From positions 4,448,930 through 4,480,929 of the forward strand of contig NZ_CP022584.1 of the NCBI RefSeq assembly GCF_002240225.1: a DNA stretch of 32,000 bases. The letters are read 5' to 3'. A program made the position numbers. The stretch is from Paenibacillus physcomitrellae (GTDB lineage Bacteria; Bacillota; Bacilli; Paenibacillales; Paenibacillaceae). How positions within the stretch are numbered: position 1 is the stretch's first letter; each line of letters opens with the position of its first letter. Below, one piece after another: positions 1 through 6,000 of this stretch.

Positions 1-3000
1 ATCAAAACGTTTTTCTACGAATTCAGCTCCAAGAAGAAGGGATACTGCTTCTTGGACTGTAAAACTAATGGGTGGAAGAAAAAAACCTTCCATCAAAGAG
101 TATCCTAATCCTGTCTCACCAACTATGGGGACACCCGCTTCACTCAAAGCTTGCATATCACGATAAATCGTTCTTATACTAACTCCCAAGACATCCGCTA
201 ATTCATCGGCTGTCAGCAATTTACTTCGCTGCAATTCCATCACAATCGCTAAAAGACGCTCTGTTTTATTCAATTGAAGCTGCACTCCCTTGTCGGAATT
301 CAGCCATTCATACCTTCAGGTAAACGTGGCTCCAAATCACTACTCCCTAACCAACAACACACAGCACTCCACATGACTTGACTACTGGTCACTGATAAAC
401 TTGCCTAGATAATGGCGGTGGCGGCGAACTTGTATTGAATGTTCGCCGAACCATCCGCCTTGACTACAATCTTATCCACCAAACGATGAAGCATATCGGG
501 TGTGAGTTCTTTCAGACCCATAAACTTCTTTAGTTCTTTCTTCATGCGTAACATACTTTCCGCGCCGCTGTTACTGTTATTCGCAGTAAGGCTCACTAGC
601 TTGGATTGTAGGCTTGCAATTTCCTCATTATTACTTTGAGTAACCTCTTTATATTCCGCTTCCGTTATCATTCCACTGGCAAGAAGTTTAATGAAACCCT
701 TCTTTTGCTCTTTCAAGTTATCAATTTGTTTCGATAATGACTGAACCTGTCTTTCCGCTTGTTTAGCCGCCTGTTTGACTTTGAACTCAAGTTGTTCCAT
801 AACATCATTCTCATTGAGCGTGTTTGACAGGCGGCGCAGGTCATCAAGGATTACCCCTGTAAGTTCATTCTCCCTAATGCTATGTTGGCTACAAACGTGC
901 TTGCCATGCTTGTAGTAATTGCCGCATACATAGCCTTTTCGATGTTGGACATACCACAGGCTTTTTCCGCAATCCGCGCAATACAGGTGATTCGTATAAA
1001 GATGCTTTTTAGCCTTCGGTTTCGCTTGCTGTCGCTTCCGTCCTTCCATGTACCTTTGAACGGCTTCATAATCTTCCCTTGATATTATCGCAGGGTGGGT
1101 ATTCTTGACGACTATCCGCTTTTCTTTCGGCAGTTGCTCTCGTCCCTTTACCGTGACACTTTTTGTCGTCTGTCTGAATTGCTCCAAGTCGCCGACATAA
1201 TGCGGATTACTCAGGATAATTTTAATGGACGAACCCTGCCAATATTGCCCTGCATTTTTCTTACCGATAACCTGAGCAGGTGTAGGAACTCCCTCGCGTG
1301 TCAGTGTTCGTGCGATTGAATCGAAACCCTTGCCCTCAAGGTACATACGATAGATTCGCTTTACTACGTTCGGTGTGTCATCGTCAGCAAGAATCAGCTT
1401 GCTTTGTTGAAGTCTGTACCCATAGGGCGGAACAGAACCTTTGAACTCGCCTTTTCTCGCTTTACTGCTGAGGGCGGCTTTAATCCGATTAGACGTGCGT
1501 TGTGATTCATCCTCATACAACCAAGCATATAAACCGAACTTTTGAATATCTCCTGTTAGCGAGTTAATTGCCCCATCCAAAGTAATGATGTGAATACAAT
1601 TCTGCATAGCTATATCCCTGATTTTATAGGACAGACCACCGTTCCGTGCAAGCCTTGACAACTCTTTAGCTAGGATAATATCGAACTTCTTAGCCTTCGC
1701 ATCCTCAATCATCCGAATGAGATTCTCGCGCTTTGCAGTTGTCCCACTTTCGACATCAATATACAGATGATGGATGTCCCACTTCTGCTTTTCGATGTAC
1801 TCATAGAACAAGCTTTTTTGATTCTCTAGCGACAACTTCTGTTCTTCTTTATCTGTCGAAACCCGAATGTATACTGCACATCTCATAGTTACGCCACTCC
1901 TTCACTATGAGATGTATTGGCGTTACTTTCATTATACTGGAAATCGGCTTCATGTTCTATCAATCTGTCGATTTCCGAGTAAACGAACGGCATAAACAAG
2001 TCTAGGAATGTTGCGCTGTCATCATAAGTACGTTCTACTTTCATTCGTAATTCCTCCCTTTGGCGTTTTCGCAGTAACAATCGCGGTAGGGATAGAAATA
2101 ATTGCGAGATGGTATCTAATTTTTTTTCAAATGATGAACTCGGGCGGCAAACCACAACAAGAGCATAGGTCATTACGATTGATAAAGCGGCAGAGTAAAC
2201 CAACTTCTCCCTAGCTATACAAAGCTTAAGCGGTCATTTTCACTAGCTTTAATCAACGAAATTACTTCACAATAATTTACAGATACCTCCATTACAGCCA
2301 ACTAATTTGTATGCTTCGCTCTGCCTTTGCCTATTGAAACTGGATTATCCTGCGAGAAAAAAACTTACGATTACGCGCTATATGTTATAAAAACAAACGA
2401 TTTACTTTTAATAGGAATGTAAGCAAGAGGAAAGGAGGGGCGGCGGTGGATAGATATATGTCCGTACGAGAGGTAACGCTTGCATTAGGGCTTTCAAAAA
2501 GCACCGTCTACCAGTTATGTAAAGCGGATGTTCTTCCATATACGCGAGTAGGCGCAAGCATCCGATTCAAGGAAGCCGACATAATCCAGTTCATGGAAGC
2601 AAACAAACAAGGAGGACGTTAATCAATGGAAAACTTCATCGGAAAGCTTTACTCCGTCTCTGAGGTGGCGGAATTGCTGAATGTGGACGTAAAAACGGTT
2701 TATCTATGGCAGAAGGAAAAGAAACTTCCTGCCCTCAAACTCGGTGGCTCAACATGGAGAATCCGGGAGCAGGACTTGAAGCTGTTCATACTCGAAGCCA
2801 TCGAAGAAGGACGTAAATAATGGAGGACGGACACATGAACGAACATAATGACAAACAAAGCTTCTATACGGCTGAGGAAATCGGGCGGTCACTTGGCACA
2901 ACTCCTGAGCAGGTAAAAAGGTTCACACAGCAAGGACTGACAACCTTCATACCTGCCAACTCCCGAACCTATTCAAAGTATGGGTTCAGGGTATGGGAAG

Positions 3001-6000
3001 CCGATTTACTGGCTTTCTTCAACTGCAAGACGTTCGATGACTTCCGCAAGTTGAAATATCGGGGATGCTAACAGGTGGGGCTTATGCTCCACTTTTTCCT
3101 TATAGGAATAACACAAATGCTTGCTCACGCTTTACTGCTTTTCCATAGATGCCTACTCGCTATTATTTCAAAATTTTTTTATGCCCTGCATACCTTGTAA
3201 AGCTAACCTGAGACTTCACGAAGTGAAGGCTCGGGAGGGCGTGAGAAATGCACCGACACATAAAGAAAGCCCTCCTACCGCTAATAGGAGAGCATCAAGA
3301 AGGACGTGAAGCTATGAGAGTTATCAAGGACAAGCTACGACTTGTTGCATCTCTTACCACAGAGGAAATCAATCGCATTAAGTCACTATTCCCTACCAAA
3401 CGCCATAACCTCTATTTCCATTATAGTTACTACCAACGTAAACCTAACTTCTTCGCGGTGTGGCTACTCCCTAAGAAACCGTTTGTCTACCGTTTCTTCA
3501 ATGCTATGCTATCCTTCAATCCTGCTAATCCACCGCTCGAAGCATTGGAGATATTTAATATGATTGAGCCTGAGCGTTGGAAGGTCAGCAGACTAGATGT
3601 TGCTTTTGACTTCTCTACGCCTTACGAAGATTGTTTCTTATTGCCGCCGCCGACTAACCTCAAAATCAGTAGGTATGAAACAACCTTATATTATGGGGCG
3701 GCAAAGTCAGCGCTATCGGTCTGTCAGTACGATAAACAAAAGCAACTAAAGGAAGTTAAGGGTATTGATTCGCTTCCAATGACGAGAATCGAGTTCCGAT
3801 TGAAACCAAAGCAAAAGCCGCTTACTAGGTACGATAAGGAAGACTTTATAAAAATGAAAGGCTTCCGGTTCGTTTCTAACACAAACGAGTTCACTGGTCT
3901 TCGATGCTTGCTAAAGAGTGTGACCAGTGGGAAACGTGATTGGAGAAACCTAAAGCGGAAAGATAAACAGGCAATTACAGTGGCGGTCAAGGAAAGAACT
4001 GTTGACATGCTAGACTTGTTCCTTGAGTATATCGAAGGTGATATTGAAAGCTTTATGCTTGAAGGTTTAACTTATCCTTCATTAATGAACGAATCGCTTC
4101 AAGCTGTGTAACATGAGACTAATATAAAACCTGCCCTAAGACGCTCATACTTCTCTTCTAATCAACCGAGTAGTAAGAGGTACCCAGTAGCTAGCATCTT
4201 GGACGAGTGGTCTTAGGGACAGTTTACGGTCATCTGACGCGCCTGAAATTTTTTCGAATATCGGTTTGACGTAAATAACCCTCTTTGGTGGTTCCCTATG
4301 TTGAAGTATAATTATTATGACAGGCTTGTAACTAAAAAATAGGAAATAAACGTACCCTTATTGTTAATGCGAGGTGTTAATCAATTGAAAAAGGTTCTCA
4401 TAATTGGAATTGTAGCTAGCGGTAAAACAACACTTGCCAAGAGACTATCCGAGACATTAAAAGTTCCTTGGTATGAGTTGGATAGTATCGTTCATCATCG
4501 AACTGAGACCGGAAGGTATAAGCGAACCGCAGATGAGCAGATTGAGGTTATTAAGGACATTGATAAGCATGGTGAATGGATATTCGAAGGTACAGACCGA
4601 CCATCATATCGTTGTTTATTTGAAATGGCGGATACAATCATATTTCTAGATACACCTTTGTGGAAGCGCAGAATAAGAATCTTAATCCGGTTTCTCAAAC
4701 AAAACCTTGGTATTGAAAAGTGTAACTATAAGCCTGATATAAAGATGTTAAAAATGATGTATAAGTGGACGCGAGACTTCGAAGAAAACCGCGAGGACTT
4801 CGAATCCCGGTTACAGTTATATAAAGAAAAAGTAATTAGACTTTACAATAACAATGACTTGAATTTTGCAACACATTTGCATCATCCAACTGCATAGGAC
4901 TGTTTATATCCGCTCGAAATTAATGTTATTTTATTGTACATATTCGAACAAAAAAGAGGGGTTCGCCGCCCCTCTTTGCTAATTCCGCCAATACATCTCC
5001 GATTTAATTGTCCTTCCGCACTAACAGTGAACAGCACTCCACATGACTTGTCTGCGGGAACATGTCCACCGGCTGGACCCATTCGACGCTGTAGCCGCCG
5101 TCGGTTAGCACTTTGCAGTCCTTCGCGAGTGTAGAAGGATTGCAGGAGACGTACACGAAGCGTTTGGGCTTCGTGCGCAGCACGGTTTCGAGGAAGACTT
5201 CATCAAGACCCGTGCGCGGCGGGTCGGCAATGATGATGCCCGGCGAGAAACCGGACTTGACCCAACGCGGCAGCAGCTCCTCAGCACGCCCCGTGTGGAA
5301 GGTGGCGTTGCTGCGGCCGTTGCGCTCCGCGTTGGCTTTGGCATCCTGAACGGCCTCCGCGATGGTTTCGATGCCGCGCACCTCGGCGGCGTTTGGCGCG
5401 AGCCACAAGCCGATCGTTCCCGTGCCGCAGTAGGCATCGACAACGGTTTCCCGGCCTGTCAGCGCAGCTGCGGCGCGGACGGATTCGTACAGCTTAACCG
5501 TCTGAAGCGGGTTAAGCTGGAAGAAAGCGCGAGGCGACAGCGTAAAGTCCAGGTCGCCGAGCGATTCTTCGATCGTATCCGAACCCCAGAGGATACGGGT
5601 GTGATCGCCGAAGATCAGCGAGGTATTCCGCGGATTGGCGTTTAAGGCAATGCTGGTTGCCTCAGGCAAAGCCAGCCGGATATGTTTGACAAGCTCAGCT
5701 TCATTTGGCAACCGGTCCTTGGCAGCCACCAGCGTAACCTGCAGCTGTTTGGACTGAAAGCCCAGCCGCACGACAATGCTGCGGACCAGCCCTTTATTGC
5801 TGCGTTCTTGATAAACCGGAATTTGCAGCTCCTGCAGCACGTTGCGGACTTTATCCACCGCGCGGTTCACCTCGGGGTGCTGGATAGGACAGCCGGTAAT
5901 GTCGATCAGTTCATGCGAGCCTGCCGCGTACAAACCGGCAATAATACCCTCCTGACGCATACCGAGCTGAAGCTGGGCTTTGTTGCGGTAATCCCAAGGA

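What the first reader, a model, noticed from the sequence alone, without database searches (positions are those of the whole stretch)
322..5070. Serine-recombinase element inserted in the 3' end of the rRNA methyltransferase gene, rebuilding the gene's tail and terminator
A perfect 20-bp direct repeat (ACAGCACTCCACATGACTTG) lies at 361-380 and 5031-5050. It brackets a visibly AT-richer 4.65-kb block whose leftmost gene is a large serine recombinase.

Joining the two inner ends (5025-5050 plus 381-394) gives a 40-bp imperfect palindrome: CAGTGAAC-AGCACTCCACATGACTTGACTACT-GGTCACTG. Its outer arms are 7/8 complementary. Its centre falls on the TG at 5044-5045, inside the shared core. This is the architecture expected of a serine-integrase attP with a central crossover dinucleotide.

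The right repeat encodes ...TSHVECC of the rlmCD-like protein. In the current configuration the ORF continues into the element as SLLVRKDN*. It is followed by an element-borne terminator whose T-run faces the minus strand. Beyond the left repeat, the minus strand reads SHVECC-VLLVRE*, a displaced alternative end for the same ORF.

So the element targets the last ~10 codons of a housekeeping rRNA methyltransferase and supplies a substitute C-terminus and terminator. This parallels SCCmec integration, which uses large serine recombinases at the 3' end of rlmH/orfX. The 20-bp identity is long for serine integrases, though SPbeta-type sites are similar in length. It may be constrained by the coding sequence.
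Basis: partly seen in the sequence, partly recalled or inferred. Interest (0 to 1): 0.72.

Follow-up and report, generated by a model that had tools for sequence, protein, structure and literature searches.

The report
Serine-recombinase mini-element in rlmCD tail
A 4.7-kb mobile element has inserted into the last codons of a ribosomal-RNA methyltransferase gene in a Paenibacillus genome and brings its own replacement gene end and terminator; it is a real, cleanly bounded insertion, but of a kind already described in streptococci and their relatives.

Summary
A perfect 20-bp repeat (361-380, 5031-5050) bounds a 4,670-bp element. It encodes an intact 493-aa large serine recombinase (LSR), two excisionase-type HTH proteins, a Rep_trans-fold protein and a P-loop kinase.

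Paenibacillus yonginensis CP014167 has flanks 97-99% identical to the window's and carries the uninterrupted site. There rlmCD ends ...HVECCVLLVRES and the WYL regulator gene follows 63 bp later. The window's two flanks join onto it without a gap.

The rebuilt attP has one clear dyad axis, at 5044|5045 (13/20 positions). Four related elements show the same axis. The replacement tail (SLLVRKDN*) plus a hairpin terminator is a conserved ~100-bp end module in ten elements.

The kind is known. Serine-recombinase ICEs, IMEs and vanG elements of streptococci, enterococci and clostridia insert in the same region of rumA, around the catalytic-Glu codon. They also supply substitute tails and stack in tandem. 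SCCmec is only a looser analogue.

This case differs in three ways: its very small size, its Rep_trans protein, and a recombinase gene with its own stop codon outside attP.

Verdict: new member of a known kind, with modest interest.

The parts
1..306 (-). 5' part of the host HTH_11/WYL/WCX regulator gene. It is the native downstream neighbour of rlmCD and now lies downstream of the recombinase gene.
   Evidence: Pfam HTH_11. Full 316-aa gene with WYL and WCX domains in L081/L082. It sits 63 bp after rlmCD in the empty-site genome L086.
340..360 (-). Displaced native rlmCD tail (VLLVRE, then stop).
   Evidence: Reads GTGTTGTTGGTTAGGGAGTAG. Matches the P. yonginensis tail VLLVRES, differing by TAG versus TCG.
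361..380 (.). Left copy of the 20-bp core (distal junction: attP left arm joined to attB right arm). Predicted crossover dinucleotide at 374-375.
381..404 (.). Recombinase-proximal attP arm, containing GGTCACTG at 387-394 (CAGTGACC on the minus strand). It lies between the core and the recombinase stop codon.
   Evidence: The arm TTAYCAGTGACC-N6-CAAGT is conserved in all family members examined.
405..1886 (-). Large serine recombinase (integrase), 493 aa, intact. It has its own stop codon 24 bp from the core.
   Evidence: PF00239, PF07508, PF13408, and a marginal PF14287 match. phrog_95 integrase, E 2e-103. YIRVST Ser motif at residues 6-11. 763 homologues found.
1878..1915 (-). Perfect 12-bp inverted repeat forming a hairpin. 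The Shine-Dalgarno sequence GAAGGAG is in the loop and the recombinase start codon is in the 3' arm. The 5' arm is the end of the upstream 51-aa ORF.
   Evidence: -21.5 kcal/mol, z -3.4. Invariant in 6 relatives.
1889..2044 (-). Conserved 51-aa ORF immediately upstream of the recombinase gene. No family assignment.
   Evidence: Called in every relative and aligned. No Pfam, NCBIfam or PHROG hit.
2446..2622 (+). HTH_17 excisionase-family protein (58 aa). Candidate recombination directionality factor or regulator.
   Evidence: PF12728 E 1.7e-13. TIGR01764 excise, 44.6 bits against a cut-off of 28.8.
2626..2820 (+). Second HTH_17 excisionase-family protein (64 aa).
   Evidence: PF12728 E 4.6e-14. 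TIGR01764 48.9 bits.
2820..3071 (+). 83-aa ORF of unknown function, conserved in close relatives.
   Evidence: 85% identical copy in L083. No family hit.
3197..3240 (+). Conserved 44-bp block upstream of rep with a hairpin at 3210-3232 (GAGACTTCAC-GAA-GTGAAGGCTC). Candidate nick site (replication origin or oriT).
   Evidence: Invariant across three relatives while the neighbouring sequence varies. DNA fold -11.1 kcal/mol, z -4.45, 0 of 200 shuffles as stable.
3314..4111 (+). Rep_trans-fold protein (265 aa; the ORF could start at 3248). Rolling-circle initiator and/or MOBT-type relaxase.
   Evidence: PF02486 25.6 bits, below the cut-off of 29.6. Family profile against PDB 4CWE, E 1.2e-7, with RLDxAFDF and the Tyr of CQYDK aligned. 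AlphaFold pLDDT 87.7. Foldseek to 4CWE/4CWC, E 1.6e-13, prob 1.0.
4361..4897 (+). Cargo: P-loop kinase-like protein (AAA_18; 'DNA topology modulation protein'-like).
   Evidence: below curated cut-offs. Absent from relatives L083 and L047. A 91% identical copy lies in L022.
4953..4977 (-). Element-borne intrinsic terminator for rlmCD.
   Evidence: 9-bp stem plus T-run. A hairpin plus T-run is kept, with sequence changes, in 10 elements.
5004..5030 (-). Element-borne substitute tail of RlmCD (SLLVRKDN, then stop).
   Evidence: An identical or near-identical tail occurs in L002, L033, L047, L003, L005, L088 and L092, although host RlmCD identity is only 63-77% in the five of these (L002, L003, L005, L033, L047) where it was measured.
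5031..5050 (.). Right copy of the 20-bp core (rlmCD-proximal junction), encoding TSHVECC. Predicted crossover dinucleotide TG at 5044-5045 (CA of the His codon on the coding strand).
5004..6650 (-). rlmCD / rumA 23S rRNA m5U methyltransferase, the target gene (548 aa in its present chimeric form).
   Evidence: TIGR00479 rumA 520.7 bits. Best PDB match is S. pneumoniae RlmCD 5XJ1.

Best explanation
Window 361-5050 holds a small integrative element: 4,670 bp counting one copy of the core, and 42% GC.

Shown:
- The element sits inside the last codons of rlmCD, and a close relative has the site empty.
- The recombinase gene and both junctions are intact.
- The element end next to rlmCD carries a look-alike tail (SLLVRKDN*) and a terminator, so the methyltransferase ORF stays complete. 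The tail follows the catalytic-Glu codon of the HVE motif.

Inferred from sequence, and replicated in relatives:
- The element's own large serine recombinase inserted it by attP x attB recombination.
- attP is a roughly 46-50-bp quasi-palindrome, TTAYCAGTGACC-N6-CAAGT-CA-TGTGGAGTGYTGYTCACTGTTAG.
- Strand exchange occurs at the central non-palindromic CA/TG, at 5044-5045 and 374-375.

Inferred only:
- Excision needs a directionality factor. The two HTH_17 excisionase-family proteins are the best candidates, then the 51-aa and 83-aa ORFs.
- The excised circle is nicked by the Rep_trans-fold protein at the conserved hairpin 3210-3232. This would serve rolling-circle maintenance, mobilisation by a co-resident conjugative element, or both. 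That would make it an IME-like or integrative mini-replicon.
- Recombinase translation is coupled to the 51-aa leader ORF through the conserved hairpin at 1878-1915.
For: - Repeat and genes.
- Empty site: P0121/L086 from P. yonginensis. The window flanks join without a gap, and blastn places the insertion with a 23-bp overlap in the subject, reflecting the duplicated 20-bp core.
- attP: the dyad axis at C|A of CATG is the single best axis here (13/20, 15/25). The same holds in L047, L084, L003 and L087 (12-15/20).
- Same target in relatives: recombinases 53-90% identical in Paenibacillus, Fontibacillus, Schinkia, Brevibacillus, Aneurinibacillus and Priestia all sit at the rlmCD 3' end, or carry a distal junction with an RlmCD-tail remnant.
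- Tail and terminator module: conserved in 10 elements.
- Rep_trans identity. Conserved hairpin upstream of rep.
- Excisionase-family HTH proteins.
- Published precedent for serine-recombinase insertion in the same region of rumA, with substitute tails and tandem insertions: PMC4120198, PMC4701971, PMC5357655.
Against: - No circular junction or excision product was seen. The one database match to an attP-like junction (L087) is a chromosomal array junction next to a decayed recombinase gene, not a circle.
- The crossover position is inferred from symmetry only. Comparative junctions limit it to the 11 bp CATGTGGAGTG, which also contains the GA of GAG reported for streptococcal vanG and ICE-r elements (PMC4120198).
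- The Rep protein scores below Pfam's gathering cut-off as a single sequence.
- No test here separates a relaxase role from a replication-initiator role.
- No directionality factor is identified.
- No conjugative helper element was looked for in the genome.
Confidence: 0.85

Rival explanations
1. [quoted passage not shown]
For: Published elements at the homologous rumA position have 2-bp GA repeats in codon 443 (PMC4120198). The GA lies inside the 11-bp segment that is always identical between attB and attP.
Against: With GA as the axis, the reconstructed attP has only 4-6 symmetric positions out of 20, which is chance level. With CA as the axis it has 12-15 of 20, in five independent elements. 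The recombinases may belong to different lineages with different half-site geometry.
Confidence: 0.15
2. The element is an integrative rolling-circle mini-plasmid. The Rep_trans protein only replicates the excised circle, and the element is not mobilised by conjugation.
For: The best sequence and fold matches are plasmid replication initiators, RepDE and RepSTK1. The protein has the size and layout of the structurally matched plasmid Reps, with no other domain assignment. In streptococcal IMEs, serine integrases were found only with canonical relaxases, not with initiator-related ones (PMC5357655).
Against: Rep_trans proteins act as relaxases in ICEs and IMEs of Firmicutes (MOBT family; PMC6499999 and PMC7563843 listed). 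The family is spread over several genera. No free plasmid relative exists in PLSDB.
Confidence: 0.3
3. It is a fixed, no longer mobile remnant of a past insertion.
For: No excision product has been observed. Many neighbouring genomes carry decayed or recombinase-less remnants at this site.
Against: All ORFs are intact. The two 20-bp cores are identical. The conserved regulatory hairpin and the att arms are intact. The element is absent from a strain whose flanks are 97-99% identical, so it was acquired recently.
Confidence: 0.1
4. It is a prophage remnant or phage satellite.
For: The recombinase matches the PHROG integrase family, and the HTH proteins match PHROG excisionase families.
Against: There are no capsid, terminase, primase or repressor genes in 4.7 kb. 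The best phage recombinases are under 30% identical. The remaining proteins have no PHROG hit.
Confidence: 0.03
5. The block is ancestral contiguous sequence and the repeat is coincidental.
For: None beyond the AT-rich left flank, which blurs the compositional boundary.
Against: An empty-site allele exists in P. yonginensis with a gapless junction. Zero chance matches are expected for the repeat.
Confidence: 0.01

Closest known systems
rumA-targeting serine-recombinase ICEs, IMEs and vanG/ICE-r elements of Streptococcus, Enterococcus, Roseburia and C. difficile CTn5 (for example ICE_Spy2096_rumA, IME_SpnAP200_rumA)
   Same: - The target is the homologous gene, in the same region: the HVE catalytic-Glu codon region, about the 11th codon from the end.
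[quoted passage not shown]
- The element end supplies a look-alike RumA C-terminus.
- Flanking repeats of 2-21 bp.
- Tandem stacking of elements at the site (PMC4120198, PMC4701971, PMC5357655).
   Different: - In those elements attP lies inside the recombinase gene, which lacks its own stop, so the 3' ends of rumA and int are swapped. Here the recombinase stops 24 bp before the core.
- The reported crossover is the GA of GAG. Here symmetry points to CA, 6 bp upstream.
- Those elements are ICEs of 16-71 kb, or IMEs with canonical relaxases. This one is 4.7 kb with a Rep_trans-fold protein.
- The host is Paenibacillus.
- The phylogenetic relation between the recombinases was not tested.
SCCmec / SCC elements (CcrAB or CcrC at the 3' end of rlmH/orfX)
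   Same: Serine-recombinase insertion into the 3' end of an rRNA methyltransferase gene that keeps the ORF intact. Repeat-flanked elements. Arrays that include recombinase-less cassettes at the same site, seen here in L023, L035 and L047.
   Different: A different target gene (rlmCD, not rlmH). The recombinase is not a Ccr equivalog: 107, 104 and 78 bits against cut-offs of 900, 700 and 900. A single recombinase, a tiny size and a Rep_trans gene.
Tn4451/Tn4453-type small mobilisable elements with the TnpX serine recombinase (from my own knowledge)
   Same: Small size (about 6 kb). A large serine recombinase excises the element as a circle. The element depends on a helper for transfer.
   Different: TnpX-type elements have relaxed target choice at GA dinucleotides and a MobV-type TnpZ. 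This family is strictly specific for rlmCD in every context examined.
Rep_trans (pT181 RepC/RepD family) initiators and MOBT relaxases (ICEBs1 NicK, ICESt3 RelSt3, streptococcal IMEs)
   Same: Fold and motif match, including the aligned catalytic Tyr. A conserved hairpin lies upstream of the gene.
   Different: A very small divergent family, with 20 homologues among 5.8 billion clusters. The single sequence falls below Pfam's cut-off. In streptococcal IMEs, initiator-related relaxases were paired only with tyrosine integrases (PMC5357655).

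Membership tests
Large serine recombinase (phage/ICE-type integrase) | N-terminal resolvase catalytic domain with the Ser nucleophile | tested here: met
   PF00239 E 5e-24 over residues 4-147. YIRVST at residues 6-11 and SRLAR further on.
Large serine recombinase (phage/ICE-type integrase) | Recombinase domain plus zinc-ribbon domain C-terminal to the catalytic domain | tested here: met
   PF07508 E 9e-24 and PF13408 E 2.6e-10. phrog_95 E 2e-103.
Large serine recombinase (phage/ICE-type integrase) | attP is a quasi-palindrome of about 50 bp around a non-palindromic central dinucleotide shared with attB | tested here: met
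   Unique dyad axis at CA/TG, 13/20 and 15/25 positions, repeated in 4 relatives. In silico only.
Large serine recombinase (phage/ICE-type integrase) | Catalyses attP x attB recombination without host factors | not testable with these tools
   Needs an in vitro or E. coli assay.
rumA-targeting serine-recombinase ICE/IME group (Ambroset 2016; Coluzzi 2017; Srinivasan 2014) | Insertion in the 3' end of rumA/rlmCD, in the catalytic-Glu (HVE) codon region | tested here: met
   The core encodes TSHVECC and the Glu is 10-11 codons from the end. The homologous position is codon 443 in GBS (PMC4120198). 5XJ2 carries the E-to-Q change at this residue.
rumA-targeting serine-recombinase ICE/IME group (Ambroset 2016; Coluzzi 2017; Srinivasan 2014) | The element end supplies a substitute RumA C-terminus | tested here: met
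   SLLVRKDN* replaces VLLVRE(S)*.
rumA-targeting serine-recombinase ICE/IME group (Ambroset 2016; Coluzzi 2017; Srinivasan 2014) | The att site lies inside the recombinase gene, so the 3' ends of int and rumA are exchanged | tested here: not met
   The recombinase stop codon is at 405-407, 24 bp outside the core at 361-380. The more distant relative L094 does overlap rlmCD by 85 bp.
rumA-targeting serine-recombinase ICE/IME group (Ambroset 2016; Coluzzi 2017; Srinivasan 2014) | Crossover at the GA of the GAG codon | tested here: inconclusive
   GA lies within the shared 11 bp. The dyad axis is 6 bp upstream, and the GA axis scores only 4-6 of 20.
rumA-targeting serine-recombinase ICE/IME group (Ambroset 2016; Coluzzi 2017; Srinivasan 2014) | The recombinase clusters with the streptococcal rumA-specific family (Ser_4, over 40% identity) | not tested
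The best PDB match is a C. difficile conjugative-transposon recombinase N-domain, 3G13, E 8.5e-14.
Integrative and mobilisable element (IME) | Own integration/excision module and no type IV secretion genes | tested here: met
   Recombinase plus two excisionase-family HTH proteins. No VirB4, coupling-protein or other conjugation domain in any ORF.
Integrative and mobilisable element (IME) | Own relaxase and/or oriT | tested here: inconclusive
   A Rep_trans-fold protein and a conserved hairpin are present. A relaxase cannot be told apart from a replication initiator by sequence.
Integrative and mobilisable element (IME) | Transfer in trans by a conjugative helper | not testable with these tools
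   Needs mating assays.
SCC (staphylococcal cassette chromosome) | Ccr recombinase (CcrA/CcrB or CcrC) | tested here: not met
   NCBIfam CcrB 107.4 against 900, CcrA 104 against 700, CcrC 77.9 against 900 bits.
SCC (staphylococcal cassette chromosome) | Integration at the 3' end of rlmH (orfX) | tested here: not met
   The target is rumA/RlmD-type: TIGR00479, 520.7 bits.
Rep_trans (PF02486) initiator / MOBT relaxase | Pfam gathering score for the single sequence | tested here: not met
   25.6 bits against a cut-off of 29.6. Some homologues carry a precomputed PF02486 hit.
Rep_trans (PF02486) initiator / MOBT relaxase | Fold, and conserved motifs including the catalytic Tyr | tested here: met
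   Profile against 4CWE, E 1.2e-7, with RLDxAFDF, CQYDK and TRIEFR aligned. These residues are invariant in the family. Foldseek E 1.6e-13, prob 1.0, TM 0.6.

The most novel reading that the evidence does not exclude
In Paenibacillaceae and other Bacillales, the rlmCD 3' end may work as an SCC-like landing pad. A guild of divergent serine recombinases (28-90% identical, in both orientations) and recombinase-less cassettes stack there in tandem. Each carries the roughly 100-bp tail-plus-terminator module, which regenerates a usable target. Cassettes could then be added serially and perhaps moved in trans. Cargo seen includes BREX, nSTAND and Mrr defence genes, a germination operon and a MurF-like gene. 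In the window's recombinase clade, recombinase output would also be gated by translational coupling to a 51-aa leader ORF through an invariant hairpin.
Probability: 0.3. Interest if true: 0.55.

Novelty: new member of a known kind. Interest (0 to 1): 0.35.

Why it matters
- It extends a known integration hotspot, rumA/rlmCD at the catalytic-Glu codon, from streptococci, enterococci and clostridia to Paenibacillus and other Bacillales.
- It shows a minimal version of such an element, 4.7 kb in size.
- Because an empty site exists in a near-identical strain, attB, attP, attL and attR are all defined to the base. This gives a ready-made, compact recombinase and att-site pair for testing. It could also help work out how one conserved coding motif is recognised by many divergent serine recombinases.
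- The effect on the host looks small. RlmCD stays complete, with a conservative tail swap.

Tried and rejected
- Species-representative genome scan with RlmCD. The nearest genome was only 87% identical, and its tail differs from both tails in the window (...TVLLKWNGASD), so it may itself be element-derived and was not used as an empty site. The empty site came instead from the protein search and contig look-up.
- Metagenome scan for a family-level attP junction, hoping for an excised circle. The single hit, L087, lies in a 196-kb chromosomal contig. There the attP-like junction sits beside a decayed recombinase gene and another tail remnant, so it is an array junction and not a circle.
- Short contigs carrying close recombinase homologues (L083, 5.1 kb; L085, 4.4 kb) were checked as possible circles. 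They are linear fragments that end in host tails.
- Discriminating CA from GA as the crossover using junction polymorphisms. The informative variants (L033, L049, L023) lack known parental sites.
- Phage and plasmid origin. No plasmid relative, and phage recombinases are under 30% identical.
- tRNA, tmRNA or known RNA at the att site: none.
- Ccr membership: rejected on NCBIfam cut-offs.
- The inverted repeat downstream of rep (4127-4142 / 4210-4225) as an origin. It is only partly conserved. The block upstream of rep is the better candidate.

Full report
**Observation**

The 20-mer ACAGCACTCCACATGACTTG occurs exactly twice in the window, at 361-380 and 5031-5050. No near-matches appear and none are expected by chance.

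Between the two copies lie these genes:
- a 493-aa ORF at 405-1886 (-) with Resolvase, Recombinase and zinc-ribbon domains, plus a marginal DUF4368 match;
- a conserved 51-aa ORF at 1889-2044 (-);
- two HTH_17 excisionase-family genes at 2446-2622 and 2626-2820 (+);
- an 83-aa ORF;
- a 265-287-aa ORF at 3248/3314-4111 (+);
- a P-loop kinase-like gene at 4361-4897 (+).

rlmCD (5004-6650, -) is a rumA/RlmD-type methyltransferase, with TIGR00479 at 520.7 bits. It ends ...TSHVECC-SLLVRKDN*. A hairpin with a T-run follows on the same strand at 4977..4953. Left of the left repeat, the minus strand reads VLLVRE*.

The block is 42.2% GC, against about 57% for rlmCD. The left flank is equally AT-rich, so composition marks only the right edge.

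**Is it an insertion?**

The window comes from GCA_014640575.1, contig BMHF01000007.1. A protein search with RlmCD found a 98% identical, 547-aa protein from Paenibacillus yonginensis. It ends ...HVECCVLLVRES.

In that genome (CP014167.1, L086), rlmCD is followed after 63 bp by the same HTH_11/WYL/WCX regulator gene and glyoxalase gene. In the window's genome these lie beyond the recombinase.

Joining window 5051-5130 through one core copy to 281-360 gives a sequence that aligns to L086 without any gap. Whole-locus blastn shows 98.8% and 97.3% identity on the two sides. The insertion is placed with a 23-bp overlap in the subject, reflecting the duplicated 20-bp core.

An empty-site allele exists, and its tail matches the displaced remnant.

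**The attachment sites**

The reconstructed attP (element right end, core, element left end) has one outstanding dyad axis, between 5044 and 5045. It shows 13 of 20 symmetric positions, or 15 of 25. A score of 13/20 or better is reached at 0.04% of positions in the window.

I rebuilt attP in the same way for related elements in P. pinisoli (L047), Fontibacillus (L003), a Logan contig (L084) and a metagenome contig (L087). All have their single best axis at the same C|A of CATG, with 12-15 of 20 positions.

The family consensus is TTAYCAGTGACC-N6-CAAGT-CA-TGTGGAGTGYTGYTCACTGTTAG. The central CA/TG is not palindromic, as required for polarity in serine integrases (established knowledge).

In other hosts the identity between attB and attP shrinks from 20 bp to 11 bp, CATGTGGAGTG. 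Mismatches sort to the expected sides. The long identity here therefore reflects the coding sequence the element mimics, not a mechanistic need.

**The tail and terminator module**

The roughly 100 bp at the rlmCD-proximal end of the element contain three parts:
- the tail codons;
- a conserved GAGATGTATTGGCGG box;
- a GC-rich hairpin with a T-run.

This stretch aligns across ten elements from different species. The hairpin is retained even though its sequence changes.

The same tail, SLLVRKDN or a near variant, is fused to RlmCD proteins that are only 63-77% identical to each other. This marks it as element-borne.

The empty site has no canonical terminator between rlmCD and the WYL gene. The terminator is therefore added, not rebuilt.

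The Glu of HVE aligns with the residue that is Gln in the S. pneumoniae RlmCD entry 5XJ2. From my own knowledge, this is the catalytic base of m5U methyltransferases. That would explain why this DNA is conserved enough to serve many hosts as a target.

**What the element is**

The 265-aa protein scores below Pfam's Rep_trans cut-off, at 25.6 against 29.6 bits. It has only 20 detectable homologues.

Other evidence assigns it to the Rep_trans fold:
- A profile of the family matches the staphylococcal rolling-circle initiator 4CWE at E 1.2e-7. The RLDxAFDF, Tyr (CQYDK against RIYNK) and TRIEFR motifs are aligned.
- A confident AlphaFold model (pLDDT 87.7) matches 4CWE and 4CWC at Foldseek E 1.6e-13, probability 1.0.

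Upstream of the gene, a 44-bp block (3197-3240) is invariant in three relatives. It folds into a hairpin more stable than all 200 shuffles. This is a plausible nick site.

No phage structural genes or conjugation genes are present. The element has no plasmid relative, and phage recombinases are under 30% identical.

The best reading is a minimal integrative element. It is either IME-like, with the Rep protein acting as a MOBT-type relaxase, or an integrative rolling-circle mini-replicon. The data do not separate the two.

**Relatives and specificity**

Recombinases 53-90% identical were examined in Paenibacillus, Fontibacillus, Schinkia azotoformans, Brevibacillus agri, Aneurinibacillus and Priestia flexa. 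Each one either sits at the rlmCD 3' end or has a distal junction of the form CAGTGACC-N6-CAAGT-CATGTGGAG followed by an RlmCD-tail remnant.

More distant recombinases (28-47% identical) also abut rlmCD in four further Paenibacillus species (L034, L037, L046, L060) and, as a partial gene, in Aneurinibacillus thermoaerophilus (L057), in the opposite orientation.

Tandem arrays and recombinase-less cassettes flanked by tail repeats are common at this site.

**Comparison with what is known**

Published work shows the following:
- Single serine integrases of streptococcal ICEs and IMEs target rumA, with 2-21-bp repeats (PMC4701971, PMC5357655).
- vanG and ICE-r elements of streptococci, enterococci and Roseburia insert at the GA of the 11th codon from the end (GAG, codon 443).
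- Diverse element ends supply look-alike RumA tails, and elements stack in tandem (PMC4120198).
- C. difficile CTn5 also uses rumA (PMC4701971).

SCCmec at rlmH is a functional analogue only, and the recombinase fails the Ccr equivalog cut-offs by a wide margin.

This case differs from the published group in several respects:
- The recombinase has its own stop codon 24 bp outside the core, so integration does not remodel it.
- Symmetry places the crossover at CA, 6 bp upstream of the published GA.
- The element is only 4.7 kb.
- It pairs a serine integrase with an initiator-type Rep protein. That pairing was not seen among streptococcal IMEs (PMC5357655).
- The recombinase clade carries a DUF4368-like C-terminus. 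Durrant et al. (PMC10083194) associate that domain with multi-targeting recombinases, yet this clade looks strictly site-specific.

**Verdict**

This is a new member of a known kind, of modest interest.

Noticed in passing
window 1878-1915 (with ORF 1889-2044, minus strand): A perfect 12-bp inverted repeat forms a hairpin. The recombinase Shine-Dalgarno sequence is in the loop and its start codon is in the 3' arm. The 5' arm is the last codons of a conserved 51-aa ORF. The hairpin is invariant in six relatives while the ORF itself varies. This suggests that recombinase translation is coupled to the leader ORF.
   Followed up: partly
window 11033-17595 (+): A complete van-type cluster: VanR, VanS, VanZ, an S11 D,D-carboxypeptidase, a VanH-like dehydrogenase, a D-Ala-D-X ligase and a VanX dipeptidase. 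Window ~10956-16375 has no counterpart at the same place in P. yonginensis CP014167, which keeps only a ligase fragment.
   Followed up: partly
L023 8354-12639; L035 8528-12654; L047 12480-14210: Other Paenibacillus genomes carry recombinase-less cassettes at the rlmCD 3' end, each flanked by repeated RlmCD-tail copies. Cargo includes a gerA-type germination operon, a MurF-like ligase and a GDSL lipase. This resembles SCC-like arrays of decayed or trans-mobilisable cassettes.
   Followed up: partly
L088 2195-6154; L094 1-9235; L092 14260-15093: Elements with related recombinases at rlmCD carry anti-phage-type cargo. An nSTAND3 NTPase occurs in Schinkia, a full BREX system in Priestia flexa, and an Mrr-type restriction enzyme in Aneurinibacillus.
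   Followed up: no
L094 10001-12852: In Priestia flexa a 53%-identical recombinase gene is convergent with rlmCD, and the two overlap by 85 bp at their 3' ends. This is the opposite orientation to the window element, and it resembles the streptococcal arrangement in which the att site lies inside the recombinase gene.
   Followed up: no
window 4985-4999 (minus strand GAGATGTATTGGCGG): A nearly invariant 15-bp box lies between the substitute stop codon and the terminator. It is conserved in most of ten related elements and lies outside the expected ~50-bp attP. Its function is unknown. It could be a binding site for an element protein.
   Followed up: no
window 405-1886, residues 451-477: The recombinase and many homologues have a DUF4368 match (26.0 bits against a cut-off of 25). 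Durrant et al. 2022 associate this domain with multi-targeting recombinases. Yet this clade was found at rlmCD in every context examined.
   Followed up: partly
window 1-404: After the insertion, the host WYL-regulator gene lies 98 bp downstream of the recombinase gene and is co-directional with it. No terminator-like site lies between them. Originally it lay 63 bp downstream of rlmCD. Its transcriptional input may therefore have changed.
   Followed up: no
L022 13400-13918: A 91%-identical copy of the element's P-loop kinase cargo gene lies about 5 kb downstream of rlmCD in Paenibacillus sp. P8. No recombinase was detected in the stretch fetched there.
   Followed up: no
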